A DNA stretch of 64,000 bases from an uncultured Clostridia bacterium. GTDB lineage: Bacteria > Bacillota > Clostridia > Christensenellales > UBA1242. The stretch spans positions 43,601-107,600 of the forward strand of contig CALVTR010000004.1 of NCBI GenBank assembly GCA_944362965.1. The letters run 5' to 3'. Positions 7,788 to 56,317 of this stretch are shown here, piece after piece (position 1 is the stretch's first letter; each line of letters starts with the position of its first letter). Under the pieces are notes generated by a model, which was not told where the DNA came from, made no database searches, and saw only the letters and a program-made list of their open reading frames with translations. The position numbers and the translations under genes were made by a program.

Positions 7788-9065
7788 TTAATTTCTTGTA
7801 AATACATAGTATCCATCAGTAAGTGCACCCTGTGTGAAATTACTTGCAAGATAACTGCCCATTGTGATACTTTCATTCTCCACAATCGCCTGTGGCACAT
7901 AAACTGTATCAGCATAGTAAAGTATATAGCCACAAGAAGTTTGCGAAGTCACACTTGTATAAATATACTCATTTATAGTAACTGTTTCAAGACCATAGCA
8001 ACTTTCAAAAGCACTATCTCCTATACTTGTTACACTTGATGGGATTGCTATACTTGTTAAACTACTACAACCATAGAAAGCATTGTTCCCTATACTTGTC
8101 ACACTATCAGGAATTATTATGCTTGTTAAACTACCACAACCAAAGAAAGCAGAACTACTTATACTTTCCAAACTAAATTCATAAGGAAAAGTATCTGCTA
8201 TATAGATTGCCGATGGGATTACCAAATCTCCTATTACACTTGTATTACAACCCGATACACTTGCTATGCCTGTTGAAACTGTATAACGATATGTCAAATT
8301 ATTATTTGCTGTATCAAATATTGCATAATAGGTTGTTGGTGAATTCTCGGTGAAAGTGAAGGTATAGTCGGCAAGGGTTGATACAAGTTCTCCGTCTACA
8401 TCTAACCAACATAAGAAGACGGCATCCGCATTGCCTGTAAAATCTGCTTGCAAGGTGACTCTGCTCCCAACCATTGCATAGCCTTCGCTTTCAGCTGTGC
8501 CTAGTATTTCTCCAGTATCTGTTTGTCCTAGTGCTATGGTCTCAACCATTTGTGGCACATACTCTTCTATCGTGATTGTAATTCCATCTAAAGAGATATT
8601 GCCTGTTGTTCCGCTTGCTGATTGAATAGTCAGGGTTATTGTGCCTGAGATGTCTGCGGTTGTAACGTTTTCTATCGGAGTTTCAGATGCGGCTGCTATT
8701 GTTCCGCTTGTAGTTAGCGTCACTCCACTACCACCTGTGGCAGTTGCTTGATAGGCTGTCTGTGTGGTATTAACAAAGTCAAAATATACATTGACTGACC
8801 CGCTGCTTGATTGAACTGTGCCTAAGTTAAGGTCTATCGACTGATTTATGTGGCCCGGAATAAAATCGTCTATAGTTGTGGCGGCACCCGTTGGCTCTGT
8901 CTGCACACGTATATCTCTTATATACAAGCTTGTGTCGCCAATGTTAAACTCCACACTTCCCTTAAGATTTATTGTCTGCGTAGCAGCATACACTCCTATG
9001 ATTAGCACTCCTAACATAAGCATAAATAATGAAATACATGAAATTAATTTTATTTTTAATGACAT
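7788..9065 (-). CDS. Secreted/surface leucine-rich-repeat protein (BspA-type LRR), paralog 1
   Basis: 425 aa; TTAAGGAGG RBS; hydrophobic N-terminal signal MSLKIKLISCISLFMLMLGVLIIGVYAATQ; C-terminal 23-aa repeats IPDSVTSIGNNAFYGCSSLTSI. N-terminus and central region are homologous to 53005-54963. Confidence 0.85.
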   Translation of the reverse strand: MSLKIKLISCISLFMLMLGVLIIGVYAATQTINLKGSVEFNIGDTSLYIRDIRVQTEPTGAATTIDDFIPGHINQSIDLNLGTVQSSSGSVNVYFDFVNTTQTAYQATATGGSGVTLTTSGTIAAASETPIENVTTADISGTITLTIQSASGTTGNISLDGITITIEEYVPQMVETIALGQTDTGEILGTAESEGYAMVGSRVTLQADFTGNADAVFLCWLDVDGELVSTLADYTFTFTENSPTTYYAIFDTANNNLTYRYTVSTGIASVSGCNTSVIGDLVIPSAIYIADTFPYEFSLESISSSAFFGCGSLTSIIIPDSVTSIGNNAFYGCSSLTSIAIPSSVTSIGDSAFESCYGLETVTINEYIYTSVTSQTSCGYILYYADTVYVPQAIVENESITMGSYLASNFTQGALTDGYYVFTRN

Positions 9066-9149
9066 TCTATTAACCTCCTTAATTTATATAGTTTGTCTGA
9101 AGCAATTATTTTTATGTAAAATTTGTCTATTTTTGCATTTTACAACCAC

Positions 9150-9178
9150 ACTATAGCATATTTAAAAAAGTCAGTAAC
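9150..9178 (-). promoter_or_regulatory. Proximal extended -10 promoter candidate for LRR gene 1
   Basis: Minus strand reads GTTACT, 17 nt, TGCTATAGT. The same positions are conserved upstream of LRR gene 2 (GTGACA, 17 nt, TGCTATATT). Confidence 0.5.
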
Positions 9179-9488
9179 AGGGGTGACGGCACGATGGCAT
9201 CAAACCACGACCCGAATTTTTCAAGCCTGACGCTTGGCGGTTATCCGGCAGAGTGAGAATAAGAGATAAGCTATATCTCCGCTCTTAAGCCAAATGTTCG
9301 AAGGCTGTCCGATTAAGCGTATTGAAGTTTTAAACTCCATCTCCGCTCTCTAAGCCTAACGCTTGGCGATTGTCCGCGAGCTAGATGCTCGGCGTTTGTC
9401 CGGCAGAGTGACATGAAAGAATAGTCTTTATTCCCGCTCTCTTTAACCATATGTTTGACGGCTGTCTATGTGAGCGAGCTTTGCTGCA

Positions 9489-9581
9489 GGTGTGAGAAGG
9501 CATGTGCATTTTTAAAATGCACATGAAGGCAAAAGTCTTTGCCTTCTAAAAGGCTTGTCAGCCTTTTATGCCTTCTCACAC
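9489..9581. repeat. Three-hairpin unit A (outer 14-bp stem enclosing three hairpins)
   Basis: Outer GTGTGAGAAGGCAT / ATGCCTTCTCACAC. Hairpins: TGTGCATTTT/AAAATGCACA, GAAGGCAAA/TTTGCCTTC, AAAAGGCT/AGCCTTTT. Confidence 0.8.
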
Positions 9582-9631
9582 TCGCGGCGAAGCCGCTCGC
9601 GATGGACATAGTATATCCATCTTTTGCTATT

Positions 9632-9659
9632 AGTATACCCCCCCAGCAACCCTTGTCAA
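9632..9659 (-). promoter_or_regulatory. Promoter-like box with a homopolymer in the spacer (R1)
   Basis: Minus strand reads TTGACA (9654-9659), a 16-nt spacer containing G7 (C7 at 9638-9644 on plus), then TATACT (9632-9637). Confidence 0.45.
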
Positions 9660-9852
9660 CAAATTTTAAGCATTTTTTCAAAATTTTTTAAAAAATTTTA
9701 TTTTTTCGGATTTTTGGTTCAAAAGCGGAAATATAGTTTGTCTCTTATTCTCACCCTGCCGGATAGTCGCCAAGCGTTAGGCTTGCGGACAGTGATGCAA
9801 ACTAAGTTTGCTGTCGAACATTTGGTTCGCTGACAGTCTCCAAGCGTTAGAT

Positions 9853-9945
9853 TGCAAGCGAAAGGGTGATTTTTTGCTTCAGTAAAAAATCACAATAGGC
9901 AAATGCCTATCAAAAAACTCGCAAGAGTTTTTCCATTCGCTTGCA
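9853..9945. repeat. Three-hairpin unit B
   Basis: Outer TGCAAGCGAA / TTCGCTTGCA. Hairpins: GTGATTTTTT/AAAAAATCAC, ATAGGCA/TGCCTAT, AAAAACTC/GAGTTTTT. Confidence 0.8.
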
Positions 9946-10030: not shown

Positions 10031-10405
10031 ATGCTTGACATAAAGTCAAAACTTGTTCTTAAAATATTGATAAAAGAATGTCCTTATGGCTCGTATAATA
10101 TTATAGAATCTAAGGATGTTATTTCTGCACTGCCAAGTAGATACAAAGTTGACATTGAGGGACTTGAAAATATCCTTATTTTTCTTGAACGACAAGAATA
10201 CATTTCAATCAAATACGATGATGATGGAGTGTATTGCCTATGTGTGCTACCTTTTGGATATGAAGTGCTTGAAAATGAGGCAAATAAAAAACGAGAAGAT
10301 AAAAAATCTCCTCGTCTTTGGTTTTATATTGTTTTTAGTCTTCTGGCAAGTTTTCTTGGTAGCTTTCTAGGAACAGTGATTGCACATATTCTAAACCTTC
10401 ACTGA
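10031..10405 (+). CDS. Small protein with a possible winged-helix N-terminal half and a C-terminal TM helix (paralog of 7096-7458)
   Basis: 124 aa; KLVLKILIKEC..IIESKDVISAL; basic linker KKREDKK; then LWFYIVFSLLASFLGSFLGTVIAHIL. No clear SD. The 3' end overlaps the radC 3' end by 71 nt (convergent). Confidence 0.5.
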   Translation: MLDIKSKLVLKILIKECPYGSYNIIESKDVISALPSRYKVDIEGLENILIFLERQEYISIKYDDDGVYCLCVLPFGYEVLENEANKKREDKKSPRLWFYIVFSLLASFLGSFLGTVIAHILNLH

Positions 10406-11099
10406 ATATGCGTTGAATATTTTTCCTTTCCATGCTATAAATTCCATCTTTGCCTACAATAATTGAGTCAATAAGTTTGCAACCAGAGAACTTAAATGTT
10501 CCCTTCATGTTTTCATAAGAAATTTCATCTTGTGCAGAAGCGATACAACTTCCATCTGGATGGTTATGGACTAAAAATGCTGCAGGAACTTTATAAGTTG
10601 AAACAAATAGAGCTATTTCGCGCATATCTATACCAACCATATTGATTGTTCCACTTGCAAACTTTCTACCCCTAATAACTTCGCCAGCAGAGTTGACACC
10701 AAATAGGTGCAACTCTTCTTCTTTTTTATAGCGAAGTAATTGTTCAATATAGTCATAAAAGTCTCCGATAGTTTTCAGTGGCTGAGACTTTAGCTGCTCA
10801 TTTGTATAATAAGAAAAGATTTCAAGTAGTGCATGTAATTTTTGAGCAGCCATTTCGCCTATACCTTTAACTTGTTGCAAATCTTCTACAGATGCTTCGA
10901 GAACAGTTGGAATGTCATTAAAACGATCGAGCAATCTATGAGCAAGTGGATTTACGTCTCCACGCGGGAAGATATAAAAGAGAATATATTCTAAGGCTTG
11001 CACTTTGCTAAGCCCATCAAGACCAACCTTGTTAACAGTTTCAGTCAATCTTTTTCTATGTCCATCATGAATACATTTTTCTTTGGTTGTTTCTGCCAT
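10335..11099 (-). CDS. radC: RadC-like JAB/MPN domain protein
   Basis: JAMM motif HNHPDGSCIASAQD; N-terminal HhH-like part. The ORF track begins at a TTG (11117), but AAAGGAG plus ATG at 11097-11099 (MAETTKEK) is the better start, 14 nt after the giant gene's stop. Confidence 0.85.
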   Translation of the reverse strand: MAETTKEKCIHDGHRKRLTETVNKVGLDGLSKVQALEYILFYIFPRGDVNPLAHRLLDRFNDIPTVLEASVEDLQQVKGIGEMAAQKLHALLEIFSYYTNEQLKSQPLKTIGDFYDYIEQLLRYKKEEELHLFGVNSAGEVIRGRKFASGTINMVGIDMREIALFVSTYKVPAAFLVHNHPDGSCIASAQDEISYENMKGTFKFSGCKLIDSIIVGKDGIYSMERKNIQRIFSEGLEYVQSLFLESYQENLPED

Positions 11100-11113
11100 A
11101 TAAACTCCTTTTA

Positions 11114-14100
11114 TCAATCTGTCGCATTTGCTTCACTAAGAAGCTTTGCGTAATTGGAACCAGTCCAACTCTCACCATCTTCATCCTTAGGGAATTGGGT
11201 TGCATAGTCACCTGTCAATGTATAATAATTTGAAAGAGTGCTATCGTTTTCAAACTGAGTGCTAAAACCAGTATAACTTTTAGATAGACTTTCGTCAGCT
11301 GAGAATAATAATACATTTCCTATGCTTTCATCATCTTCATTTGTTCCAAATGCTCCACCCCATTTCATGCCTGTATCAAATAGAGAAACTCTAGTCATCC
11401 TGTCTCTTCTCTTTGCACCTGAAAGAGCATTAATTCCATTTAGAGATAAATTCGACCCTTCTGCAGAATCATCAGTGCCTAATATAATTTTACCAGCATC
11501 ACCAGATTGTCCTGCAGCACCCGCTTCACCTCTATCAAAATCAACAACAGCATCTGAAATATATGTTATACGCTCACTGTAAGCTGTTCCATAAGAATTG
11601 TATGTAGAACCACCTGCTCCAGCATTTCCGCCATTGCCAGGTTTTAATATAGCACTATCATAAGCAATAACGAGATCGTCATTTCTAGAAATTATAATGT
11701 CTTTTCCGGCACTACCATTTCCGCCTTGACTTCCATCTATATTAATAGAAGAGCCATTAGAACCTTTTCTTCCATCAAGTCCATTGGAAGCTGATACAAA
11801 GCCATAATACGTTACATTTGCATTTATATTATCACCGAATAACGTGATATCACTTATTCCACTAGTATCATTGCCTGCATAATTTAGATATATGTTGTTT
11901 ACATTTATCGTGGATACAACAGACGCATAAATAGTTATATTTGTATCTGAACTTTCATTAGTATTAAAAGCAGAGCCTGTATAGTTGATAATTGCTGCTG
12001 ATGAATCTGTGTAGTTATTAGTGCTTCCATAGATTGCAATATTTGCAAGTTTTGAAAGCGAATCATTGTCTTCTCCTGACAGGAATAATGCATTTCCGTA
12101 TCCATCTGCAAGGAAATTGACATCCTTTATAAATGAGTTTATACCTTCTAAACTTTGGAATATAGGTGAATTATAGTAAGAAATATAGTAACCATTTCCA
12201 ATTATGTTTATAGATGCAGGCTTATTGAACCCACCATCAACTGTTGTAAAGGATATATCATCTTGCAAGATAATTGAGAATGGATCTTTTGTTGTAACGT
12301 CACCATCTATTCTTTCTGTTATAGTAGGACTTGTATCATTGCCAGCACTATTAGTTACAGTTATCGTTGCCAAAGAGATATTCTCGCCAGAAGGATTCAA
12401 ACTATTTAAATAAATTTGATACTCTTCGCCTATAATGATATAATTTTGGTTTTCTACAAAGCTGTCTGGAGCTGTTGTTACTTCAAATTTATCTAGTTCC
12501 ACACCAAAAGAGATCGATTCTATCTGATGGCTTGGTAAGGTTATACCACTCCATGTATAGTTGATTTCATTTATTGTTGATGGACGAGAACTATCAAATG
12601 TATATCCATCTTTTATAAATATATAATCATTATCTATTCCAAGAATATCAAAATCTGAAATGTAAGGCATCCACGAATTATTTAAGAAACTAGAAACAGT
12701 AAAATTACCTATATCACTAGCTGAAGAATAGATACTCGTTCCTAAAGTAATGTTATTAATAACTTCACCTTGAATTCTTATCGTCGTTCCGTCTTCTGTT
12801 TCAGTATTTGTATACACTTGTCTATGACTACTATTATAGTATCTATAATATGTATAATCATCAGATGCGTTTTGTTTTGCCATGCTAAACACAGGATTAT
12901 TATAATTATCATAGAACAACCATTGTTCAGAACCATTGTCACCGGTATTATGCGCTACAGTCACTAAACTTGATTCATCAGAATTTAAATAGTAAGATAT
13001 TGAATCTACTGTGATTGAGTCTCTATCTTCAGAAATTGTAGCATTTACTGTAAAGTCAAAACCAGAAGCATTGGTTAGTGCTATATGCACTGTTGACGAA
13101 TCACGTGCCGCTAATTCATAAACAGGACAAACATTAACTCCGATTGTCACACTGCTTCCACGAATTTCATATCGTGACATAGTATCAAAGGATTGAGTAT
13201 AATTTCCTGTTCCTGTTATTGTCACCGAACTCAAATTTGAATAGTTGCCAGCATCAGAGTCAACATAGAACTCAAGTCCTATTGTTTCATTTTCGTTTAA
13301 ATATCTAGAATAAAGTGTTACATTGATGTCATTTAAGCTTGTGTAACAATCTTCAGTATAAGATATATCATTATAGGTTCCATAATATACTCTTATTCCA
13401 TTTAAATAATATGACTGCAATGATGATGGATTGCTGTTTAAAATATCTGAATTGAATCTAAGTTGATTTCCATCTACTACAAAATATCCACTATCATCAT
13501 TTAAACTATAATTCTTAACAGCCGTCGTGCTTGTTGTAGCAAGTCCCATTATAGCACCTGAGCTATTATATATGTTGAAAGATATGTTGTTGCGATCTAT
13601 AACTGAAGAGAATAGATCAGGTAAATTTGTAACATTATCAAAATCATTAGTAATAGCAGTGTAATTATTTAAAATTGTTTCCAACGAGCTTCTATTTAGA
13701 CTAATACTGCCAGTTCCGTTGTAGGTATATATTAGTTCTCTGCTACTTGAATTTAACTGCACTGTAAATTCATTGCCATTTATGTCTATAGTATTATACG
13801 ATGACGATTTAATCAAACCACGTGATTGTGAGTAGCCTAAAATAGGCGTGTCGTCTTCGTCTAAAATTAGAGTGTTTTCGCTGTATCTATTAAGGTTTAC
13901 TATGAACTGTGCATCTACTTGTTCAGTAGTATACGAACTTGAAAGACTAGCATAATCAGTAATGTCGCCATTTGTTATAGTTGGTGAGCCAGATGCTGAA
14001 ACCAACAGATTGTTAGTTAGGTAGTTTCTTAGAGTTGTAGCCAGAGAGCTAGCTGAAGAACTGCTGAGATCTAAATTGCTAAATCTGAATGTTAGAACGT

Positions 14101-17100
14101 CACCTGTTGCACTTAAAGTATAGCTATATGCCGATCCACTGACTGTTATTGTGCCGCTTCTAAGAGGTGACCAACCACTAGAAGAATAAGTTGCAAGGAT
14201 ATCTCCTGACCCTGACAGTGTCACATTATAAGAACTATATCCTTCCCCAGTTAAGTCAAATTCATTGGTTATATCTACTTCAATATCACTTGAATAAGTT
14301 AAGTTGGATTCAATACTACTATACCAAGAACTTAGCTCATCACCATAAGATATTGATGCATTACCATCGGCAGTGCCGCCACCTATATTACTTAAGGTTG
14401 TCTCTCCATTTCCAGATATAGAACCAAAAGAAATATCTTTTGCTGTTTCTTCTCCTTCTATCGACAGAGAATAGGTTTGATTATTAAACATGTCTATAAT
14501 TTTTGACACATTTTCTTGATAATCTTCTGCGCTTCTTCCAACTATTGAATTATTAACTAGATCTAAGTTGTTTACAGAATATCTTTCAGTTTCATCAACT
14601 ACAAGTGTTGCATTTGGAATATAAACCAACATTCCATTCTCTTCATCAACGCCGAAGAACACGAAATTTTCATTTTCTTCATCGCCGAGAACTGCTGGAG
14701 CCCCAGTAAATGCACCTTGTTTATATCCTTTTATAACTAAGTCGTAATCATTCCCAAAACCATCAAATAGACGATATCCACGAACTTCTTGATAATTGTC
14801 TAAAACATCAATCTGTATTCCAATAGCATTGTCATTTATGTAGTAGTATTTAGTATTTGACATATTGAATGTGACAGTTTGATTGTAATTAAAGTGGATA
14901 GTATAACTTATATTGCCACTAAAAGGTGTGAAGCTATAGCAAGTAAAGTTCAAACCGTCTTCAGTTACAGAGTTTACATATGTTATCAAACTATTTCCGT
15001 TACTTGTAGCAGAAACAGAGTAGTTGCTTGTATCATTTGTGTAAGGAATATTGCCTAGCGACGCTCCTTCTACTCTATAGACATACACTCCCGCATTGAA
15101 AATGGTATTTGCGTTGTTTGTGCTTACAAGATAATATTCTTGTCCATCTATTGTTGTAATTTGATCTTCACCTTCTGTTTGTTGACTGCGAGTGCTATTT
15201 TTTATTGTAGTCCCATCATAAGGGTTGCTTACTGAATTTGAAACATTGCTAATAAAGGAATAAGAATCACTATAACTATTTACATAATCCATGTAGATAG
15301 TCGTAGCATCTACAGAAACAAATTCAGAATTTGTGGCTCTATAATTATTTACAGGTCTGAAATTATCATCATTTCGCCAATTTTCATCATCATAGCCAAA
15401 CGGAGTAAAGTTACCCCACCAGCCATTATTAGCATAATCTATGTCAACAACATAATCTACCCTTACAGTAAAGCTATTTGGCAAACCAAAACTATTATAT
15501 GACTGAACATAAACTTCTGCTGAGCTGCTAGGAGCTTGAATACTGCTTGTAAAGCTTATTCTTGTTAAGAAATGACGGCTAAAAACTAAATGAAATAACC
15601 AAACACGACCATAAGTAGTATAAGTTCTTTCTCTTAAATAAGTTCCGCTTATCATATCTGACAATTCCCAACTTGCGATAGGGTCTTCAAAATCTAGCAT
15701 TGAGCCATTCATGTAGATGGATGATTCCGTTGCGTCGCGAGCTACACAATCCTTTATAGAGCCACTATTAAGATAACCTATTGCATATGCCCAAACATTA
15801 CGGTTGCTTGTTTGTTTAAGCTCAAGAGTATCTTCATTCCATCTATATTCAGTTGTTGGACTTGTGCCTAGAGCTTCGATAGAGCCTTCATTATAACATG
15901 CTGTAATCTCCGCCGTTTCTGCCATAGCAATTATACCTGCGGCATAAGAACGTCCCCTTACAACCCCACGACCATAGGTCTCGCCATTCTCTTTATTGCC
16001 TGATTTGATTGGTCCGGCATTGTATGAACCTGTTATTGAAAGGCTAGTTGCATCGCTATAACCTGCAACACCACCAACATAATAGTCACCTAAAGTTGTT
16101 GAAAGTGCTGAAGCTGATGCATAGTTTGCCATAACTGAAGTTGCGTTATAACTATAGTTGATTGCGTTATTATCGCCTACTATATGACCTACAATACCAC
16201 CGACATAATAGTTGCCTGTTGAACTTGTGCTACTAATATCATAATATACATTGATTGTGCCATAATTTGAGCTGTAGTTTATGGTTGTGTTTTCCATGCG
16301 TCCAACTAAACCACCAACTTCAATATTATCCGTATCTTTTTCTGTTTCATTGATTGTGACTGTGACAAGATTTGTTACAGTTGAGATAGTAGAATTATAT
16401 ACTTCATTGGCAAGTCCGCCAAGAACGGTATAATCTGCGTCAGTTGGATCGTCACCTTCATTGAGACCTAACACACCAAGTGCTGCAGTATTTGTTGAAC
16501 CTGAGATTGTCATATTTGAAATCTCAGCATTATAGATTGTTGTTGCAAGAACGCCTTTTTGTGAAACTGCGACATCTGTAAGTCTAAGATTTCTAACTTG
16601 AACTGTCTCGCCATCTTTTGTTCCTAAATCTTTGAAGAATGAGTTGTTGAGATTTGATAATGTGTTTTCATTGCCATCAAAATCGACAAATGCTTCGTTC
16701 ATCACTAAGCTTTCCCATTCTGCCCAATCTGTGAGTGAGATATCAATGCTATACCAGAGAACGAAATGTCCAACATTTACTTCTTCTGCTTCAGCTGTGC
16801 CATCTCCGGTTTCTCCATCTGGATTATCTGTTACAGGAGAAAGAACAGTTGTTATGCTTGACATCTTTGTAAGGATGCCTGCATGTGGAACAATATAGTA
16901 GAAGGTCTCTTCTGTTGAGCCATCAGTTCCTGCATCAGTTGAAGTGTATGTGCTTGGTCTTGTGTTATTTGGAAGTCTTGTGTAGTCATTTGATGTTACA
17001 TAATAATCATAAGTGCCTTCTTCGCCTTCACGTTGAAGCTCGCCTGCTGTTGCAAAGGATGATACTTTGGTAAATCCATATTTCAATGTTGGATAACCAT

Positions 17101-20100
17101 AGTTGAAATCATATTCGCCTTTATCAAAGAAGATTGTTGAAAGTAGTGAGCTTTCGTCAAGGACAGCATTTGAAAGCGTTGATGTGTCTTTGCGTATTAC
17201 ACTATCCGTTGCCGATTCACTTTCTATAATCAAGTCAGTTTCTAGTGCGTTATAGTCGTAATAAGAGTTTGTAAGTAAGTAGGTATCACTATCACTTCCA
17301 TCACTAAACACGCCAACTGTGCCACTTGCCGCACTTGTTCTTGTATAGTCGTCAAGCGTCATTTTAACGATAGAATATGTGTTATCTACCATTGTGTGAG
17401 AAGCACCTGAGGTCACTGCATATAGATTAGCACTGATATATGATGAAATGCTTCCTGTAGAGTAAGAATATAGAAGGAATTTTGTTGTCACGTCTGATGA
17501 GGCATTATCAAAGCCTGCAAGTCCATATACACTTCCATTTGCACCTGCTCTATAGATAATATCAAGTGACGTTGTGGCATATACAATCTTTCCTGATTGA
17601 ACATTGCCAACAAGTCCGGCAACAGTCATTGCATCAGTTCCACCTACGCTCAACTCACCTTTGACTTGAACTGCGTATACTGTTGCGTTGTCTGTCATTG
17701 TGTTTGCAAGACCTGCAAATGTTCTTTCTCCATCGTCGTTATTTGCATTGACGTCAACATTTACAACAAGACCAGAGACATAAGAGAAGCCACTTAATGT
17801 ATCTATAAGAGACTTTTGATCTGTGCTGCTATTGCTGTCAAGTGAATAATCGATTTCATAGCCATCGCCTATTATAGCCACATTCTTAAGGTTATTTCTT
17901 TGATATGTTGTTGTGCCAATGTTTGTGTTATGACCAATATTTAACTGGCTTGTAAACGCCGAGCTGTTTGTGTCAATCACATAGTATGCCATACCATTTG
18001 TTAGAGTTGGAGTTTGAGCCTCTCCTGTTGTGGTTGCACTCAAAACAATAGGGCTAAGTTTTTGACCTGCAACATGACCTGTTTCGCTTCCACTTCGCTC
18101 GTAGAGATTATAACTATTAAATAGACTTACAAGGTTTGTGTTTCCATCTGCGAATGTATTTAAACTTGTCTTTTCGCCATTATAGCCATATCCATCAGCA
18201 AGATATGGTAAATAATATCCAACGTCTGTGCCTAAGTCATCGATAGTAAGAGTGACGAGTGAACTATAATAGTTGTCTTGAATAGTTGAATCTTCAGACG
18301 GCAATGTTCCAAATAGTGCATTATTTGTGCTGTCATCTACTTCAACATACCTTACATTATGGCTTGTTACCAATGAATAGTTAAGTGTGGCTTGAATTTT
18401 ATATGGGTTTTGTCCTTCAGTGCCTGAAGAAATTTCGCCAAGAACCCCACCAAATATATAACTTCCAAGTTCACTTAGAGTATTTCTACCTGCAACATAT
18501 TCATCGTATTCAACAAATACGTCGCCATAGTTATAGTTGTTAGTTATAGTTACGTTGACTTGTTCTGCATTGTAACTGCTTGTGCTTGAGAGTAATGCAC
18601 CAACAGTTCCGCCTGCAACAACTTCTTCTGAAGTTGAACCAAATACTTTTAGTGCGCCGCCAAATACACCATTTTGAATAGTTAAACTATCGTTAACGTT
18701 AGAGAAGTATACCCCGCCGACTATTCCACCAAAGTTGATAGAATGGGCGTTAGAGAACACGGCTCCGATATAATTTATAGTATTTTGAGAAGTGTTGCCA
18801 ATTTGCGATTTAGATGCAAGTGCTGGAGAATCTGGGGCTGTTACATCTTGAGAAGATACTATGCTTCCTATCATTCCACCAACATTTGCTTCGGTGTAGT
18901 CTGTGCTGCTTCCTGTTTGAGAAACAACAATGTTTGCTTTTGAAACAATATTATTTGTGACTACTAGCGTGTCTGTTGCATTGGCATCTGTTGCACTGAC
19001 TGCCGAGAACTTACCTATCAATGAGCCAACATTGAGCTCTTTGTTTTGCGGCGTGCTTATTCTGATAAATTCGCCATTATCATTGAGTTTTGTAAATACT
19101 GATGCACTGCCGCTGAATGTAAATCTAGCATCTGTATGTCCAACAAGAACGCCGACATTAGCATTGCCATTTATTGCAACCATACGCTTTGCATATTGAG
19201 CGGTGTCATCTGAATAAGAAATAAAGCTATCTTTTGTAAATTCGTCTGAAGTAGAGCTTCCCCTTACATAAGCTTCAACTGCAAAGTTTATTGTGTCTAT
19301 ATTTCTTATATTTGTTGCATTTTGACTTAACTCACCCGCAAAGCCACCTGCATATAAGTTGTTTATAGATGCACCAGACTGAACATAAAGTCCACCATCA
19401 AGGACAGAGTTATTTAGGTTGACACTATCTATTGTCGTTGAGTTTTGACCGAATACAAGACCTGCATAGACATTTTCAGTTACTCTTACGCCCGATAAAA
19501 TTCTTAAGTCAAGTTCAAGAGAAATTGAAGCACCGCCATAGTTGCTGATATTATTTACACCTTGATTATTGCCAATTACGCCACCCATATGGAGATTGCT
19601 TATCTCAAGATTTGAAGTTACAATTATACCTTGATTTGTGTCATTTACTGATGATGATGTTCCTGATTTAGTTATATTGTTTATAGTAACTCTTGCACTC
19701 AAGGCAATATCATCTCTTGTTGTTAAACCAAAGTATCCACCTATATTAACTTCGCCTAAACTGCGTCTACTAGAAGAGCCGCCACTTAGCGTTATTAAAT
19801 CGCCATTGAACTCATATTCTATTCCTTCAATTCTTAGGATTGATATTGAGCTACGTTGATAAAGCGTTCCGGCTAAGAAGCCTATATTTACGTTAGGCAT
19901 ATTGCTGTTTGTTGCAGGAGCAGTGATATTTACAATCGAGCTTCCGCTGCCTATTCGACTTGAAGTGATTGTTATATTTGATAGGGTTGAACTTGTGATT
20001 ACTGGAGCAATAATACCAAAATTATAATCACTTGAGCTATCTAAAATTGTAGATGTTACACGAGAATTTATTTCAATTCTTAGGTTTGAAAGTGTTGCTT

Positions 20101-23100
20101 CTGAAAGTCCACCAACAGAGAATAAGCCTGCATTGTTATTGCCGTTGGCATTTATCGTTATATTAGAGCTATTGCCTGTGTAATATTCAATTTCTACATT
20201 ATTCATATAGAAACCAGCACCTGTTGAATCTATAAAACTCTCTGAAGATATAATTCTTACTCTTTCGCCTTGCCTATCGCCACTTGTTACAATATATTCT
20301 TCACTACCTATAATCGAACCTGAGAAACCAGAGATAGGCTGAATCAAACCGCTGCTAAGATAAGGTCTAAGGTCAATATCTTCATAACTATCATCACTAT
20401 CAGGAGATGTTCTTCCTCTGACAACTACGGTCAAATCATTATTTGAAGTCTGCAATCTTTCAAATACAGAGACAATACTTTCTTCATAAGCATCAAGGTA
20501 GATATAATTTGAAGAGCGTTGATATCTTATTGATGGGAAAAGTTCGTCAGTGTCATGAACCCAGTGAACAGCTTCCCATGCACCAGAACTTAAGAATGCC
20601 TGTTGAGTATATGTATGCCCAACGGTTGAATTTGTAAAGTTTGTTGGAGAGGCTATAGCATAGACAAGGGAATCTTCTTCTGTGCTGATTGAGCCATTTA
20701 CGTCACCAAACAAATTCATTGTTATTCTGAAACTATTGAATGAATAGCTGTCATAGAAGGCAACTGTTGGAATTAAACCAAGTGCTGTGCCTGTGCTATT
20801 GGTTGAAGTAAGTTGAATAATTTCAATATATGATGAGTAGTTATCTATAGTTAAATCTATATCATTATTGTTTGCAATATCACTAGCTTCGTTGAAGGCA
20901 GAGCCTAAAATAAGGTTTGTCTTGTATGTATATGAGATATTCATTGCTTGAGTTACAGGCAAATACTCTTCTGTTTGGTAATCATAGTTAGCAATCTCGT
21001 TGACAGAGTTTACAGCAAGGAGTGCAATTCTGTTGCCAGAGCCTATTGATACACCAATTATACCGCCTGCAGTCATGATACTGCTATTGCCATCTTGTCT
21101 TGCACGGACATCACCTGACGCATATACTTCATTTATAAAGTATTTTGTGTATGTGCCGTCTGTAAGTAATTCCGTTGAAACTTGATATGTAGATGTGCCA
21201 GATAAATCAATGCCACCAATCACACCACCTGCAAAGTCTGCCGATGGGCTTGTTACATTCAATTTCGAATAAGATATTTCAAGTTTGCCAGAGCCAACAT
21301 AGCCCGCAATTCCACCAATATATAACTGAGAATAGCTGCTATTTGCAAGATAGAAGATATCAAGGGCTCCCCTTTCTGCTGTGGTGTCTCCGTTATAGAA
21401 GGATTGAATACTATTTTCAATATTAGACTGGGTTGAATCATCATAAGCTGAATAAATTCTGCTTAAAGCACCAAATGATTGTCCAACAACGCCACCTGCA
21501 AAATACTTAGTTGCTATGATATGTGACTGGTTCTCAGCTGTCGTGCCTGTGATATTTATTCCTGCATCACGAACGTTTGTCTGGAAGCCTGTGAGACCAA
21601 AGATACCGCCGGCTACCTGCCCTTGAACGTATACAGTTCCGCTTACTCTGATATTATTTATTGAATAATCTTCTGCTTGATTGATATTGAAGTTTCTTGA
21701 AGTTGTTGAGAAGTTATCTGCAAAGCCAAGGACAGAACCCGCATAAGAATAATTGCTTAGTTGTGTTATAACTGAAGATGAGATTGTTGTGTTATAGTTT
21801 AAGCTGTTTCTGATATCATTGCGTATTCCATTTAATTTTTCAATGTCAAAGTATGCATTTTGAGCTGATTGAGAATATCTATCAGCAACAACATAAGGGT
21901 CAGTTACAACAATATTTTTAATAACACTATTGCCAAATGAGAAGCCTACAAGTCCACCTACAAAGTTTAGACCTGTGACTTGAGAGTTTTCGTTGAATGT
22001 TATTTCAATATTTACAATAATAGAGTCCTTAATGTATCCAGCAAGACCGCCCACCATAACAGCGTCACCAGCTACAACTTGATTTATTTCAAGATTTAAG
22101 TTGCTTATAAGTGGAACAGAGCCGTTTCTGCTCTCAACAGAAGCAAATAATCCATAAGCCACATCGCTTTCTTCTGAGGCTATTGATATATTTGAAATTG
22201 TAAATCCATTGCCGTATAGTCTTCCTGCAAAAGCTTTTGTTGTTGATGGAAGAATTATAGATTCACTTACAGTTGAAAGGTCAATATCAGCAACCATTCT
22301 ATAGCTGCCCCATACAACACTGCTATTATAGTTTTGAGATATAGGAGTTGATGACGAATTGCCCATAACTTCTACAAAATCTTGAGCACTTGTTATTAAT
22401 ATTGGGTTGTTGCTTGAGCCAAGAGCCGTGTCTATTTCACGAGAAGAATCTGTGAACTGCAAGATTGCATATCTAAAGATATATTCACCCTGCTCATTTT
22501 CTGCTGTCACTCCTTCATAGCCTGAATTTTCATCAAGATAGTAGGCATATCTATGTGAATATGACTGTAGGTTTGGCTCTATAAGAGTTACACCTTCTTC
22601 TGTTATTTGCCATACGCCATCACTTTCGCCATCTGCAACTGCAAAGCCGTAGAAGTATGAAGATACAGCTGGGTTTGGTATTAGAATTGCACCTGTGCCA
22701 TATTGTGACTCTACTGTGCCATCGTCTGACATTTCACCACTATAACGTTTATTAAAGAAGTAGCAATTTGTATATGTTCCATTAGCAAGCAAGTCACCAT
22801 TTTCGTCAACACCTGAGAAGTTCATTTGCGTTGCTCTTGAGTTTGCAATTTGTGATGCTGAATAGCATGCCTCTATCGTGCCTGTGTTTTCGTATACAAA
22901 ACCTGATGCAAAGTATACACGCACTGTATCAGTTGAGTTTGCAATTAAAATATTTGAATAGCTGTTTTGAATTGTGCCTAAGTTGTTGTTTACAAAGCCA
23001 GCAATTACGCCAAGTCTTGATTTTAGTGAAGAGCCTTCAAATGCATAGATTGAATAACTGCTATCATCTGCGAGACTGTCATCGTTTGGCACACCTTCAA

Positions 23101-36105: not shown

Positions 36106-36181
36106 TGGTGGCCTACCCGGGATTCGAACCCGGGACCCCTTGATTAAAAGTCAAGTGCTCTACCGACTGAGCTAGTAGACC
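36106..36181 (-). tRNA. tRNA-Lys (anticodon UUU)
   Basis: GGTCTACTAGCTCAGTCGGTAGAGC..CTTGA-CTTTTAA-TCAAG..GGTTCGAATCC..GTAGGCCACCA. Cloverleaf with encoded CCA. Confidence 0.92.
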
Positions 36182-36443: not shown

Positions 36444-36459
36444 ATGTCGTTTTCTTTTA

Positions 36460-36535: not shown

Positions 36536-36550
36536 ATGAAAAGTTAAATA

Positions 36551-36627: not shown

Positions 36628-36640
36628 ATAAAAGGATATG

Positions 36641-36717: not shown

Positions 36718-36720
36718 CCA

Positions 36721-53004: not shown

Positions 53005-54963
53005 TTAATTCTTAAACCAATAATATTGACAATAAGTTGTTTTCAAATAAGTTGCTGCAGTTGTCGAATTAGATAAATCAACTGTGATTGCTGTTAAGTC
53101 TGAACCACTTATTGAAGAAGAATATCCCCACCCATCAGGATCATCAAAAGTTACATTAGTAAGATTACTGCAACCATCGAAAGTAGCACTACCTATACTT
53201 GTCACACTGCCTGGGATTGTTATATTTGTTAAGTTACTGCAATTATAGAAAGCTCGAGCGTCTATACTTGTCACACTGTCTGGGATTGTTATACTTGTTA
53301 AACTACTGCAATCTTCGAAAGTTCGAGCGCCTATACGTGTTACCCTGTCTGGGATTGTTATACTTGTTAAATTACTGCAACCCTGGAAAGCCATAGAAGC
53401 TATACTTGTCACACTATCTGGAATAGTTATACTTGTTAAACTACTGCAGCCTTCGAAAGATTGAGAGCCTATACTTGTCACACTATCTGGAATAGTTATA
53501 CTTTCTAAATTACTGCAAATAAAGAAAGCAGAATCATCTATTATTGTCACACCTTCTAGGATTGTTATACTTGTTAAACTACTGCATTGATAGAAAGCAC
53601 GATAACCTATAGCTATGCAAGTATCTTTTATTGTATAATTTGTTATTGTTGTTGGTGCATCAACAAGATAGATATATTTGGTATTATCATTCCCTAAATA
53701 ACTTACTTCTTCTTCATCTACATTATATTCTAAACTATCGCAATCTTCGAAAGCTCTACCACCTATACTTGTCACACTAGTAGGGATTGTTATACTTGTT
53801 AAATTACTGCAACCAGAGAAAGCATACCTACCTATACTTGTCACTCCTTCTGGGATTTCTATACTTGTTAAACTACTGCAACCTCGGAAAGCAGCTTCAA
53901 GTATACTTGTCACTCCTTCTGGGATTTCTATACTTGTTAAACTACTGCAATTATAGAAAGCATAAGTTCCTATACTTGTCACTCCTTCTGGGATTGTGAT
54001 ACTTTCTAAATTACTGCACCCCTCAAAAGCAGAACCACCTATACTTGTCACGCTAAATTCATAAGGTGAAGTGACTGACCTATATATTGCTGATGGGATT
54101 GTTACTTCAGTTGCACTTGTATTACAATCTGATACACTTGCTGTGCCTGATGAAGTGGTATAACTATATTTTAAATTACTATTAGCTGTTTCAAATATCG
54201 CATAATAGGTTGTTGGTGATTCTTCGGTGAAGGTGAAGGTGTAGTCTAGCGAATATGAAACCAAATCTTCTGCTTCTAAGCTTGTTTTCCAACCTAAGAA
54301 GTCGGCATCAACGCCTACGAAATCGGCTGATATCGTAACTTCGTCGCCATACTCTGCAAATGCACCTTGTGCTTGTCCTAAGGTTTCGTCAGATGATATT
54401 GCTATAATATCTGGCTGAGCTTCGTCTATTGTGACTGTTATCTCACTTAAATCTATTCTAGCAGAGTTTGGTGCCATGATTGTTAAGGTTAGTGTGCCAT
54501 CTGCTTGTGTTGTTGCAGGGTCAAATTCTTTAAAGCCGTCTTCATCTGCGTCGGTTAGGTCATTTACGCCAATTATCCCGCCATGTCTTTCTGACACACC
54601 ATCATTTGCAAGAGCTCCTAAATCTACACTTTCTATTGACCACAGAATATCCGTTGCATTGATTATATCAAAATACAAGATAAAAGAACCGTGACCATTC
54701 TCTTCTGTCTCTAAAGACGTTAAGTCCATATTAAAGTTTCCATTTATGTAACCCGGTGTGAAGCTATCAACAACAATCTCTTCACCACCCGCTTCTTGAT
54801 ACCTGACTTCTTTAACAAACAAGCTTCTATCAGGCACGACAAAGCTTAAATTGCCTTGTATGCTTATTTGCTGCTGCGTCGCTGCATATACCCCAAGTAT
54901 CAACGCCCCTAGCATAAGCATAAATAGTGAAATTGTGGATATCAATTTTACCTTTAAACTCAT
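53005..54963 (-). CDS. Secreted/surface leucine-rich-repeat protein (BspA-type LRR), paralog 2
   Basis: 652 aa; signal MSLKVKLISTISLFMLMLGALILGVYAATQ; about 11 copies of the 23-aa repeat ITIPDSVTSIG..AF.GCSSLTS; homologous to 7788-9065. Confidence 0.85.
   Translation of the reverse strand: MSLKVKLISTISLFMLMLGALILGVYAATQQQISIQGNLSFVVPDRSLFVKEVRYQEAGGEEIVVDSFTPGYINGNFNMDLTSLETEENGHGSFILYFDIINATDILWSIESVDLGALANDGVSERHGGIIGVNDLTDADEDGFKEFDPATTQADGTLTLTIMAPNSARIDLSEITVTIDEAQPDIIAISSDETLGQAQGAFAEYGDEVTISADFVGVDADFLGWKTSLEAEDLVSYSLDYTFTFTEESPTTYYAIFETANSNLKYSYTTSSGTASVSDCNTSATEVTIPSAIYRSVTSPYEFSVTSIGGSAFEGCSNLESITIPEGVTSIGTYAFYNCSSLTSIEIPEGVTSILEAAFRGCSSLTSIEIPEGVTSIGRYAFSGCSNLTSITIPTSVTSIGGRAFEDCDSLEYNVDEEEVSYLGNDNTKYIYLVDAPTTITNYTIKDTCIAIGYRAFYQCSSLTSITILEGVTIIDDSAFFICSNLESITIPDSVTSIGSQSFEGCSSLTSITIPDSVTSIASMAFQGCSNLTSITIPDRVTRIGARTFEDCSSLTSITIPDSVTSIDARAFYNCSNLTNITIPGSVTSIGSATFDGCSNLTNVTFDDPDGWGYSSSISGSDLTAITVDLSNSTTAATYLKTTYCQYYWFKN
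53150..54100 (-). repeat. Tandem 69-bp (23-codon) LRR coding repeats
   Basis: ACTTGTCACAC(T/A)..GGGATTGTTATACTTGTTAAA(C/T)TACTGCA recurs about every 69 nt. This also produces antisense repeat-artefact ORFs in the track. Confidence 0.85.
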
Positions 54964-55090: not shown

Positions 55091-55533
55091 AGGGGTGACG
55101 GCACGATGCCGTCAAATCACGACCCGAATTTTTCAAGCCTGCTGTTCGACGATTGTCCGATTAAGAGTGTCTAAGTTTTAAACTACATCTCCGCTCTCTA
55201 AGCCTAACGCTTGGCGGTTATACGGCAGAGTGAGAATAAGAGATAAGCTATGTCTCCGCTCTTAAGCCAAATGTTTGACGGCTGTCCGGCAAACTTAGTT
55301 TGCATCACTGTCCGATAAAGTGAATATAAGAAACAAACTTTATCTCCGCTCTCTAAGCCTAACGCTTGGCGACTATCCGGCAGAGTAAGTTGAAAAAATA
55401 AACTTTGTCGCCGCTCTCAAACCTTACGTTTGGCGATTGTCCGCGAGCCAGATGCTCGGCGACTGTCCCTGAGCTAATTGAAAGCACAAACCTTATCTAC
55501 CATGTCTTTGCTTGCGGAGCGAGCGTTGCCGCA

Positions 55534-55628
55534 GGTGCGAGAAGGCATAAAGGCTGACAAGCCTTTTGGAAGGCAAAAAGTTTTTGCCTTCTTGTGCATT
55601 TTGAAAAAATGCACATGCCTTCTCACAC
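55534..55628. repeat. Three-hairpin unit E (interior inverted relative to unit A)
   Basis: Outer GGTGCGAGAAGGCAT / ATGCCTTCTCACAC. The interior (55549-55614) matches the reverse complement of 9504-9567 with only a few substitutions and indels. Confidence 0.85.
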
Positions 55629-55678
55629 TCGCGGCGAAGCCGCTCGCGATGGACATAGTATGTCCATCTTTTGCTATT

Positions 55679-55708
55679 AGTATACTCCCCCCCCGCAACC
55701 CTTGTCAA
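55679..55708 (-). promoter_or_regulatory. Promoter-like box with a homopolymer in the spacer (R2)
   Basis: Minus strand reads TTGACA (55703-55708), an 18-nt spacer containing G8 (C8 at 55687-55694 on plus), then TATACT (55679-55684). Confidence 0.45.
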
Positions 55709-56142
55709 CAAATTTTAAGCATTTTTTAAAAAAATTTTTATTTTTTTTGAATTTTTGCGGATTTTTGGTTTGAGAGCGGAAATATAGTTTATGTTTTAGG
55801 GTTGCTCTATCGGATAGTCGTCGAACATTTGGTTCGGTGCCTTAGGCACTTTTTATCGACAAGTGTATCTTTAACGCTGAGTTTATCAGTTCCATGAGAG
55901 CGGGGATAAAGTTTATACTCGTAACTCATCCTGCCGGACAATCGCCAAGCGTTAGGCTTGGTGGCTTAGCCACATTTTGTCGTCTAGTGCGTCCATAACG
56001 TCGAGTTTTTCAGTTCCAGCTTAGCCACTTCCTTTTGATAATTTTTCCTATCTCCACTTTATATGAATAACTTTTCATAGCTATAATTTCCTTGTATAAC
56101 CCCTTTCTTTTTCACTTCAGCTTATAATTTGTTTTTCCGCCG

Positions 56143-56242
56143 CAGGCAAGCGAATGGGTGATTTTTTAACAAAAAATCACAATAGGCAAAACTAGTTTTG
56201 CCTATCAAAAAACTCTTACGAGTTTTTTCATTCGCTTGCCTG
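56143..56242. repeat. Three-hairpin unit F
   Basis: Outer CAGGCAAGCGAATG / CATTCGCTTGCCTG (extendable to about 23 bp). Hairpins: GTGATTTTTT/AAAAAATCAC, ATAGGCAAAAC/GTTTTGCCTAT, AAAAAACTC/GAGTTTTTT. Confidence 0.8.
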
Positions 56243-56317
56243 TGGCGAAGAAAATTTACATTATGTTACTCGAGCAATCTAAAATAAAACCCTAAAAATA
56301 TCCGCATATTGATATAC

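What the first reader, a model, noticed from the sequence alone, without database searches (positions are those of the whole stretch)
9489..9581. A 64-66-bp segment bounded by 14-bp inverted repeats is inverted between R1 and R2
The flanks are colinear in both copies: GCAGGTG(T/C)GAGAAGGCAT on the left and ATGCCTTCTCACACTCGCGGCGAAGCCGCTCGCGATGGACATAGTAT on the right. The interior is not. The R1 interior (9504-9567) reads GTGCATTTTTAAAATGCAC..GGCTTGTCAGCCTTTT. The R2 interior (55549-55614) reads AAAGGCTGACAAGCC..GTGCATTTTGAAAAAATGCAC, which is the reverse complement of R1 apart from a few substitutions and indels. The order of the three hairpins is reversed and the asymmetric loop TGTC becomes GACA. 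Simple hairpin palindromy cannot explain that. This is the footprint of DNA inversion between the inverted repeats GTGTGAGAAGGCAT / ATGCCTTCTCACAC, located downstream of the promoter-like box and upstream of a surface-protein gene. No recombinase gene lies in the window, so the mechanism is open: a site-specific invertase encoded elsewhere, or template switching at the palindrome.
Basis: seen in the sequence. Interest (0 to 1): 0.75.

Follow-up and report, generated by a model that had tools for sequence, protein, structure and literature searches.

The report
Fixed flip inside a palindromic leader element
A 64-66-bp block of three small hairpins, sitting between short inverted repeats in the leader of two related surface-protein genes of a chicken-gut bacterium, really is reversed in one copy. 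It looks like an old, fixed and functionally neutral flip, not a working genetic switch.

Summary
R1 interior 9504-9567 is the reverse complement of R2 interior 55549-55614, and the flanks are colinear. The breakpoints lie inside the 14-bp repeat GTGTGAGAAGGCAT.

Both copies lie on the minus strand, about 30-150 nt downstream of a strong TTGACA-N16/18-TATACT promoter with a poly-G tract in its spacer. They sit in the long leader of BspA-type LRR surface-protein genes.

The repeats plus interior form a roughly 118-bp quasi-palindrome: one closing stem and three hairpins. It folds identically in either orientation and on either strand. It carries no promoter and no orientation-dependent terminator.

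R1 has the flipped state in every independent assembly examined, and R2 and two further paralogues always have the other state. No branching contigs were seen, and all 7 spanning nanopore reads are colinear with the reference. R1's interior is 12% diverged from its paralogues although its flanks are 95% identical to one of them. A related lineage (L044) shows an independent flip. No recombinase gene is in the window.

The best reading is a one-off inverted-repeat spacer inversion, most likely by replication template switching. This is a known kind of event, and here it is fixed and near-neutral. An active switch is not supported.

The poly-G promoter spacer (15-19 nt between copies and orthologues) is the more plausible phase-variation device.

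The parts
9478..9503 (.). R1 repeat arm on the gene side (extended 26 nt; perfect core GTGTGAGAAGGCAT at 9490-9503)
   Evidence: the repeat finder pair I4; pattern search; coordinates
9504..9567 (.). R1 interior, 64 bp, in the flipped state. Hairpins at 9504-9522 (GTGCATTTT/AAAATGCAC), 9525-9546 (GAAGGCAAA/TTTGCCTTC) and 9548-9567 (AAAAGGCT/AGCCTTTT)
   Evidence: fold
9568..9593 (.). R1 repeat arm on the promoter side (core ATGCCTTCTCACAC at 9568-9581)
9601..9621 (-). First leader hairpin (GATGGATATACTATGTCCATC on the sense strand), just downstream of the predicted transcription start
9632..9659 (-). R1 promoter TTGACA-N16-TATACT (11 of 12 consensus positions), with G7 in the spacer (C-run 9638-9644 on the plus strand) and an A/T-rich upstream block at 9660-9700
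7788..9065 (-). BspA-type LRR surface-protein gene (425 aa) served by the R1 leader; 5' UTR about 560 nt
   Evidence: Pfam LRR_5 1e-21; ORF
55523..55548 (.). R2 repeat arm on the gene side (core GTGCGAGAAGGCAT at 55535-55548, one mismatch to its partner)
   Evidence: pair I9
55549..55614 (.). R2 interior, 66 bp, in the majority state. Hairpins at 55549-55566, 55569-55591 and 55594-55614
   Evidence: fold
55615..55640 (.). R2 repeat arm on the promoter side (core ATGCCTTCTCACAC at 55615-55628)
55679..55708 (-). R2 promoter TTGACA-N18-TATACT (11 of 12 consensus positions), with G8 in the spacer (C-run 55687-55694 on the plus strand)
53005..54963 (-). BspA-type LRR surface-protein gene (652 aa) served by the R2 leader. 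It shares the N-terminus MSLK.KLIS.ISLFMLMLG with the R1 gene
   Evidence: Pfam LRR_5 2.8e-92; ORF
9853..9945 (.). Second element of the same design upstream of the R1 promoter: repeat GCAAGCGAA.GG / CCATTCGCTTGC closing three hairpins. It also acts as the terminator region of the upstream gene
56132..56253 (.). The same second element upstream of the R2 promoter (25-nt arms, 88% complementary). It is colinear with R1's copy, but one 4-nt loop reads as the reverse complement
   Evidence: pair I8

Best explanation
**What the element is.** The repeats plus interior form one roughly 118-bp quasi-palindrome: a closing stem of about 25 bp around three perfect hairpins. It lies about +30 to +150 in the transcript made from a strong sigma-70-type promoter on the minus strand. 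That transcript is the 5' leader of a small family of BspA-type LRR surface-protein genes.

**What happened in R1.** In one paralogue (R1) the 64-bp spacer between the arms was inverted once, long ago. The most probable mechanism is a replication template switch between the two arms. This process is recombinase-independent, inverts the spacer of an inverted repeat and makes the arms more perfectly complementary. The flipped state then became fixed.

**Why it has no effect.** Every hairpin is itself a palindrome. The flipped element therefore folds into the same four-way junction and presents the same stems, so the flip is functionally near-neutral and is not an ON/OFF device. Once inverted, the R1 interior stopped being homogenised with its paralogues and drifted, but only at loop and junction positions.

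**Status of each step.**
- Shown: the inversion, its breakpoints, its fixation, the identical fold in both states, and a second independent flip in a related lineage.
- Inferred: the template-switch mechanism, and the role of the element as an orientation-independent structured leader module (RNA stability or attenuation).
For: 1. **Real inversion with breakpoints inside the core.** The outer-arm asymmetry (GCAGG on the gene side, GCGAG on the promoter side) is not swapped between R1 and R2.
2. **Orientation is locus-specific and constant.**
   - R1 is flipped in the window, in L035 and in unbranched contigs of X1-X8 and X15.
   - R2 is unflipped in the window, L025, L026, L037 and X1-X4.
   - Nanopore reads of X26 are colinear at R1 (4 of 4) and at R2 (3 of 3).
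3. **Island of divergence.** The unflipped paralogues R2/L037, L038 and L039 have 98-100% identical interiors even where their flanks are only 57-80% identical. R1's interior is 87-88% identical to them after orientation correction, while both its flanks are 95% identical to L038. R1 is 100% identical to its orthologue L035.
4. **Where the differences fall.** All eight R1 differences lie in loops, junctions or loop-proximal A-T pairs.
5. **Same fold in both states and on both strands.** The leaders fold at -92 and -95.7 kcal/mol (z -12.5 and -11.0), and eight distinct modules give the same topology.
6. **No orientation-dependent element.** There is no terminator-like site on the sense strand in either state and no promoter inside the interior.
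7. **Independent flip.** L044 is flipped, but its stems and innermost C/G pair belong to its own clade.
8. **Repeat-arm perfection.** Flipped modules have arms at or near the top of the range: R1 14 bp against 10-11 in its own genome, L044 12 against 10 in L042/L043. Template switching predicts this arm homogenisation (PMC8604942; PMC8794818).
9. **No recombinase nearby.** None is found in the 64-kb window or next to the third and fourth copies.
Against: - Logan contigs drop rare variants and only 7 long reads span the loci, so a minority orientation below roughly 10-20% cannot be excluded.
- The rest of the genome was not available, so a recombinase encoded elsewhere is not excluded.
- The repeat core AGAAGGCAY is conserved in sequence across diverged modules while hairpin stems vary. 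This could mean a protein recognition site.
- Published spacer inversions by template switching are mostly 2-50 bp (PMC12371153; PMC8604942). A spacer of 64-66 bp is large for the class.
- The arm-homogenisation signal rests on two flipped modules, and an unflipped one (L040) also reaches 12 bp.
- The 12% divergence could also mean that R1's interior was imported rather than flipped in place.
Confidence: 0.7

Rival explanations
1. Active phase switch. A site-specific invertase encoded elsewhere in the genome recognises the conserved AGAAGGCAY repeats and flips the hairpin block. This would change leader RNA structure or termination, and so surface-protein expression, as in the cwpV and flgB leader switches of Clostridioides difficile.
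For: - It has the same layout as cwpV: an inverted-repeat-bounded segment between the promoter and the ORF of a surface protein (PMC2784873).
- The repeat core is conserved in sequence across diverged modules.
- Both orientations exist in two lineages.
- Rare variants cannot be seen in contig data.
Against: - No mixed orientation was seen at any locus in 11 or more independent assemblies and 7 spanning long reads.
- R1 and R2 have almost the same repeats and promoter-side flanks, yet they sit stably in opposite states. A common biased switch would not do this.
- The R1 interior is 12% diverged from its paralogues.
- The interior has no promoter and no orientation-dependent terminator, and it folds identically both ways.
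- No recombinase is in the window or beside other copies.
Confidence: 0.08
2. No in-place flip. R1 received an already reversed interior from elsewhere. Either gene conversion or cassette exchange brought it in from another (unsampled) paralogue, or a small element with terminal inverted repeats was excised and re-inserted in the opposite orientation.
For: - Upstream modules are clearly mosaic and get exchanged. The same gene (P0007) carries different modules in L042/L043 and in L044.
- L026 and L039 show module-to-gene fusions.
- R1's interior is more diverged than its flanks.
- A second element of the same design exists in each intergenic region, and a third type (L056) has its hairpins in the reverse order.
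Against: - No donor with R1's interior sequence was found in any of the runs or loci.
- R1's stems are those of its own genome's copies, not those of the other flipped module.
- The outer arms are not swapped, so a whole element with 26-bp terminal repeats did not turn round.
- Copies of this element were found only inside homologous promoter modules, not at unrelated sites, and no target-site duplication is visible.
Confidence: 0.15
3. Assembly artefact: the palindromic region was mis-assembled in the source genome.
For: Palindromes and multi-copy repeats are common places for assembly errors.
Against: - The identical R1 arrangement is recovered independently in nine runs as contigs with 0 differences that link the locus-specific flank to the interior. 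Two of these contigs cross both junctions.
- A separate metagenome assembly gives the same arrangement.
- Four nanopore reads span the locus colinearly.
Confidence: 0.01

Closest known systems
Inverted-repeat spacer inversion by replication template switching, and the hairpin-associated 'small inversions' of chloroplast non-coding DNA (Ripley 1982; Kelchner & Wendel 1996; PMC8604942; PMC8794818; PMC12371153)
   Same: - The inverted segment is exactly the spacer of a short inverted repeat that can form a hairpin.
- The flanks stay colinear.
- No recombinase is needed.
- The events recur independently in related lineages and are fixed in each.
- The arms tend to become more perfect, and stems stay perfectly paired.
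   Different: - The spacer is 64-66 bp and is itself three nested perfect hairpins. Published cases are mostly 2-50 bp simple loops.
- It sits in a conserved leader module of a bacterial surface-protein gene family, not in anonymous spacer DNA.
cwpV and flgB leader switches of Clostridioides difficile (RecV-dependent invertons between promoter and ORF; PMC2784873, PMC7446863)
   Same: An inverted-repeat-bounded segment lies downstream of the promoter and upstream of a surface-protein gene in a Gram-positive gut bacterium. The segment contains neither the promoter nor coding sequence.
   Different: - In cwpV the segment is 195 bp with 21-bp repeats, and both orientations coexist in every culture.
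- In cwpV one orientation creates an intrinsic terminator, and a recombinase is known.
- Here no mixed populations were seen, no orientation-dependent terminator is predicted, both states fold the same, and no recombinase was found.
Small palindromic repeat elements found in either orientation in transcribed intergenic DNA (ERIC, Correia, BOX, REP/BIME); comparison from my own knowledge, not tested against databases
   Same: They are imperfect palindromes of about 100-150 bp with terminal inverted repeats, fold into stable stem-loops in mRNA, and occur in both orientations relative to genes.
   Different: - This element was found only within homologous promoter-leader modules of one gene family.
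- Only the part inside the 14-bp core is reversed, not the whole element.
- No target-site duplication is seen, and nothing in Rfam matches.
Phase-variable promoters with a homopolymer in the -35/-10 spacer (for example Mycoplasma hyorhinis vlp poly-A and Neisseria porA/opc poly-G/C); from my own knowledge, relevant to the neighbouring promoter and not to the inversion
   Same: A G7-G9 run lies between TTGACA and TATACT in front of a multigene surface-protein family. Spacer length differs between paralogues and between orthologues (15-19 nt).
   Different: Within-population length heterogeneity and its effect on expression were not measured here.

Membership tests
Site-specific invertible switch (inverton; fimS, hin, cwpV type) | The segment is bounded by inverted repeats | tested here: met
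   A core of 14/14 (R1) and 13/14 (R2), with extended 26-nt arms
Site-specific invertible switch (inverton; fimS, hin, cwpV type) | Both orientations of the same locus coexist within a population | tested here: not met
   There is one unbranched contig per locus in 9 (R1) and 4 (R2) runs. All 7 spanning nanopore reads are colinear. Sensitivity is limited to variants above roughly 10-20%.
Site-specific invertible switch (inverton; fimS, hin, cwpV type) | A dedicated tyrosine or serine recombinase | tested here: not met
   None is found in the 64-kb window or next to L038/L039. The rest of the genome was not available.
Site-specific invertible switch (inverton; fimS, hin, cwpV type) | An orientation-dependent functional element (promoter, terminator or coding end) inside or at the edge of the segment | tested here: not met
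   No promoter lies inside the segment. No sense-strand terminator-like site appears in either state. The fold and energy are the same both ways.
Inverted-repeat spacer inversion by template switching / hairpin-associated small inversion | The inverted segment is exactly the spacer of a hairpin-forming inverted repeat, with breakpoints inside the arms and colinear flanks | tested here: met
   (the outer-arm asymmetry is not swapped)
Inverted-repeat spacer inversion by template switching / hairpin-associated small inversion | The state is fixed within a lineage but recurs independently between lineages | tested here: met
   R1 is fixed in all samples. L044 is flipped independently, with its own clade's stems and innermost pair.
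Inverted-repeat spacer inversion by template switching / hairpin-associated small inversion | Arm homogenisation accompanies the inversion | tested here: inconclusive
   Perfect arm lengths are R1 14 against 10-11 in its own genome, and L044 12 against 10 in L042/L043. Unflipped L040 also has 12, and there are only two flipped modules.
Inverted-repeat spacer inversion by template switching / hairpin-associated small inversion | A short spacer (reported range about 2-50 bp) | tested here: not met
   The spacer is 64-66 bp. The ranges are from PMC12371153 and PMC8604942.
MITE / REP-like palindromic mobile repeat inserted in either orientation | Copies dispersed at unrelated sites, with target-site duplication | tested here: not met
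   Copies are found only in homologous promoter modules. The genome-collection scan returned only unrelated chance hits. No duplication is visible at the ends.
MITE / REP-like palindromic mobile repeat inserted in either orientation | The whole element, including its terminal repeats, is reversed between copies | tested here: not met
   The extended arms keep their side-specific differences in R1 and R2.
Homopolymer-spacer phase-variable promoter (neighbouring feature) | A homopolymer between -35 and -10 whose length differs between orthologous loci | tested here: met
   The R2 locus has spacer 18 (window, L026), 19 (L025) and 16 (L037). L042 has 19 against L043 with 16.
Homopolymer-spacer phase-variable promoter (neighbouring feature) | Length heterogeneity within one population, and an effect on expression | not testable with these tools
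   The element is multi-copy and only contigs or noisy nanopore reads were available.

The most novel reading that the evidence does not exclude
The closing-stem-plus-three-hairpin element with its sequence-conserved AGAAGGCAY repeats may be a new kind of cis element of phase-variable surface-protein genes. It would be recognised by a protein encoded elsewhere (a recombinase or a structure-specific factor). That protein would flip it at low frequency and also use it as the crossover point for swapping promoter modules between paralogous genes. On this reading the fixed states seen here are only the majority states of a slow switch or shuffling system.
Probability: 0.08. Interest if true: 0.65.

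Novelty: new member of a known kind. Interest (0 to 1): 0.3.

Why it matters
This case warns against inverton hunting by sequence alone. An inverted-repeat-bounded segment that differs in orientation between paralogues, sits in the classic position between promoter and surface-protein gene, and has no nearby recombinase can still be a fixed, neutral palindrome flip.

It also extends inverted-repeat spacer inversion, best documented in chloroplasts and yeast, to a 64-bp multi-hairpin spacer in a gut bacterium. Inversion also appears to isolate a segment from concerted evolution with its paralogues.

The surrounding module is a better candidate for real phase variation and for a new structured leader motif. 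It combines a poly-G promoter, two cloverleaf-like palindromes and variable arrays of about 64-nt repeats in front of a BspA-like gene family.

Tried and rejected
**Searches that led nowhere**
- The genome-contig scan for the repeat pair gave 24 hits, all unrelated chance palindromes.
- Exact-protein look-ups failed for the R1 LRR protein, RadC and P0015.
- The PacBio and single-cell RNA runs offered under the label 'organism A' are tens to hundreds of gigabases. They are probably the host animal, not the bacterium, so I did not use them.
- The 'RNA?' runs X5, X44 and X45 cover both sides of the promoter and may be DNA. The only clear metatranscriptome evidence is one 151-nt read over 9061-9211.
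- Rfam gave nothing at gathering or E-value thresholds.
- MAFFT mis-aligned hairpin 1, so its covariation was read by hand.

**Readings considered and rejected**
- cwpV-like terminator flip: no orientation-dependent terminator is predicted.
- A MITE in two orientations: the outer arms are not swapped and there are no dispersed copies.
- Inversion of the whole promoter between the flanking inverted arrays (81-nt arms, 84% complementary): the promoter points at the gene in every copy seen.
- Assembly artefact: the arrangement is recovered independently many times.

Full report
**1. Observation**

- R1 interior 9504-9567 aligned to the reverse complement of R2 interior 55549-55614 scores 48.5, against 4.0 for the direct alignment. 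After orientation correction, 59 of 67 columns are identical.
- The flanks are colinear on both sides (alignment A1).
- The core repeat GTGTGAGAAGGCAT / ATGCCTTCTCACAC is perfect in R1 and has one mismatch in R2. The arms continue as imperfect 26-nt repeats, 85% and 81% complementary.
- The pattern GAGAAGGCAT-N50-80-ATGCCTTCTC occurs twice in the window, against 0.00 in 100 shuffles.
- The three hairpins are in reverse order in the two copies, and the asymmetric loop TGTC becomes GACA.

**2. Context**

- Both copies lie upstream of minus-strand genes for BspA-type LRR proteins: 7788-9065 (425 aa) and 53005-54963 (652 aa). Pfam LRR_5 scores are 1e-21 and 2.8e-92.
- The two proteins share the N-terminus MSLK.KLIS.ISLFMLMLG.
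- On the minus strand, just upstream of the element, sits the best promoter match of each region: TTGACA-N16-TATACT at 9659-9632 and TTGACA-N18-TATACT at 55708-55679, each matching 11 of 12 consensus positions.
- Each promoter has an A/T-rich block upstream and a run of 7 or 8 G inside the spacer.
- The element therefore occupies about +30 to +150 of a 560-710-nt leader.
- One metatranscriptome read covers 9061-9211, so at least the gene-proximal leader is transcribed.
- The window holds WhiA, RadC, DnaE, PriA, UvrA/B, PPDK and similar genes, and no recombinase.
- Runs that hold the sequence are chicken-gut metagenomes.
- WhiA in the window, and MurA/FtsW next to a paralogue, suggest a walled low-GC Gram-positive bacterium. 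This is an inference.

**3. Anatomy**

- The leader from the predicted start through the element folds at -92.0 kcal/mol for R1 (z -12.5) and -95.7 kcal/mol for R2 (z -11.0). Both give the same topology: a first hairpin, then a long closing stem around a four-way junction with three hairpins.
- Eight distinct modules give this fold on both strands.
- All stems are perfect Watson-Crick.
- No sense-strand terminator-like site is found in either orientation, and no promoter lies inside the interior.
- Rfam has nothing similar.

**4. Related copies**

- One metagenome (ERZ1090861) holds four copies:
  - L035, the R1 orthologue, is 100% identical and flipped.
  - L037, the R2 orthologue, is unflipped.
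  - L038, a third locus inside the cell-division gene cluster, is unflipped.
  - L039, a truncated fourth copy, is unflipped.
- Two further R2 orthologues, L025 and L026, are unflipped.
- The family of the LRR N-terminal domain is small, with 20 proteins at E <= 1e-5.
- Upstream regions of more distant members carry the same element. L040/41 and L042/43 have the majority order and L044 has the flipped order.
- L044 precedes the very same protein as L042/43 but is a different module variant. After reversing its interior, it is colinear with the majority type. Its hairpin-1 stem (GTGCCGTTTT) and innermost C/G pair belong to its own clade, whereas R1 has the stems of its own genome.
- So there have been at least two independent flips.
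- Stems covary:
  - Hairpin 1 has CAT/ATG, TTG/CAA, AAG/CTT and CCG/CGG.
  - Hairpin 3 changes from GG/CC to AA/TT.
  - The innermost repeat pair changes between T/A and C/G.
  - Five compensatory pairs appear even in the imperfect MAFFT alignment.
- More distant members (L052, L054, L046) keep the poly-G promoter but lack the element.

**5. Is it switching?**

- Contigs with 0 differences link R1's locus-specific flank to the interior in the flipped state in X1-X4, X5 and X6, X7, X8 and X15.
- In X2 and X7 a single contig crosses both junctions.
- X9 and X13 have contigs of matching length.
- No contig joins R1's own flank to the other orientation. The contigs that look like that carry 2-5 flank differences and continue into other genes, so they are other paralogues.
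- The R2 junction contig is likewise single and unbranched in X1-X4. The interior k-mers have 2-4 times the depth, as expected for several same-orientation copies.
- In the one informative raw long-read run (X26), four reads span R1 and three span R2 colinearly. The opposite-strand joints are those expected from the other copies.

**6. Age**

- The unflipped paralogues have 98-100% identical interiors even where their flanks are 57-80% identical.
- R1's interior is only 87-88% identical to them, although both its flanks are 95% identical to L038.
- All eight differences lie in loops, junctions or loop-proximal A-T pairs.
- The simplest reading is that the flip is old. It took the interior out of the homogenisation that keeps the other copies alike, while the stems stayed constrained.

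**7. Mechanism**

- The side-specific differences of the outer arms (GCAGG against GCGAG) are not exchanged, so the exchange points lie inside the 14-bp core.
- Fourteen base pairs is short for RecA-dependent recombination (my own knowledge).
- Template switching between short, imperfect inverted repeats is documented to invert the spacer and homogenise the arms (PMC8604942). It is also documented to create and maintain perfect hairpins with apparent compensatory changes (PMC8794818).
- Hairpin-associated small inversions recur in chloroplast spacers (PMC12371153).
- The flipped modules have arms at or near the top of the range, which fits but is weak evidence: R1 14 bp against 10-11 in its own genome, and L044 12 against 10 in L042/L043.
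- A second element of the same design lies upstream of each promoter (9853-9945 and 56132-56253). It is colinear in R1 and R2, but the 4-nt loop of one hairpin reads GCAA in R1 and TTAC in R2. Against the reverse complement, that is 3 of 4 matches. The chance probability is about 0.05, so this is only suggestive.

**8. Comparison with the known switch**

- The cwpV switch shares the position between promoter and ORF. It has a 195-bp segment, 21-bp repeats, mixed orientations in every strain, an orientation-specific terminator and a recombinase (PMC2784873).
- None of the last three features was found here.

**9. Verdict**

- The inversion is real but fixed, recurrent only on an evolutionary scale, structurally neutral and best explained by template switching (confidence 0.7).
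- An active switch keeps about 0.08, and import of a pre-flipped cassette about 0.15.
- The event is of a known kind, and this is a new and unusually large multi-hairpin example.
- The poly-G promoter spacer varies between 15 and 19 nt among copies, and between 16 and 19 nt at orthologous loci. It is the likelier source of phase variation in this gene family.

Noticed in passing
window 9632-9659 and 55679-55708 (poly-G as C-runs 9638-9644 and 55687-55694); loci L025, L026, L035, L037-L044, L052, L054: Every member of this surface-protein family has a TTGACA...TA(T/A)A(C/A)T promoter with a G5-G9 run in the spacer. Spacer length ranges from 15 to 19 nt and differs between orthologous loci in different samples: R2 18, L025 19, L037 16; L042 19 against L043 16. 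This looks like classic slipped-strand phase variation of promoter strength.
   Followed up: partly
window 9853-9945 and 56132-56253; also L038 985-1085, L054 100-205, L056 55-150: A second quasi-palindrome of the same design lies upstream of the promoter: a roughly 25-nt repeat ..GCAAGCGAATG closing three hairpins with stem motifs GTGATTTT, ATAGGCAAA and AAAAACTC. It contains the terminator-like hairpin of the upstream gene. One 4-nt loop is reverse-complemented between R1 and R2. In L056 a related element has the three hairpins in the opposite order.
   Followed up: partly
window 9222-9440 and 9705-9850; 55133-55470 and 55767-56020: Arrays of units of about 64 nt (CTCCGCTCT.., then a small hairpin with a covarying stem, then ..GTCCG) fill the leader between the element and the gene. 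Copies in inverted orientation lie upstream of the promoter, with arms of up to 81 nt that are 84% complementary. The arrays are absent in some alleles: in L026 and in contigs of X8 and X16 the element is followed within about 35 nt by the RBS and ATG. In L040 and L044 units are inserted elsewhere in the leader. Their nature is unknown (REP-like repeats or protein-binding arrays?).
   Followed up: partly
window about 9137-9166 and 55062-55090 (minus strand); same block in L037, L038, L040, L044, L047, L053: A conserved block about 100 nt upstream of each start codon contains an extended -10-like motif: TGCTATAGT, TGCTATATT, TGCTAAAAT or TGCTAGAAT. It is preceded by GACGGCATCGTGCCGTCAC. This may be a second, proximal promoter of the family genes.
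   Followed up: no
L042/L043 versus L044; L026; L039 1620-1660: Promoter modules are mosaic. The identical 407-aa protein has different upstream modules in different samples. L039 is a promoter module joined through ACACACACACA to the 3' fragment of an LRR gene. This suggests frequent recombination among the 5' regions of the family.
   Followed up: partly
window 11114-30769 (minus strand): A giant ORF of 6,551 aa has almost no Pfam match (only a GLUG motif). A RadC-like gene follows it at 10335-11117.
   Followed up: partly
window 55650-55811, seen in nanopore run X26: Reads of the X26 strain carry about 520 extra bases between 55650 and 55811 relative to the window. This is a structural difference in the promoter-upstream part of R2.
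   Followed up: no
window 36106-36794 (minus strand): A cluster of six tRNA genes: Gly-TCC, Arg-TCT, His-GTG, Gln-CTG, Gln-TTG and Lys-TTT.
   Followed up: no
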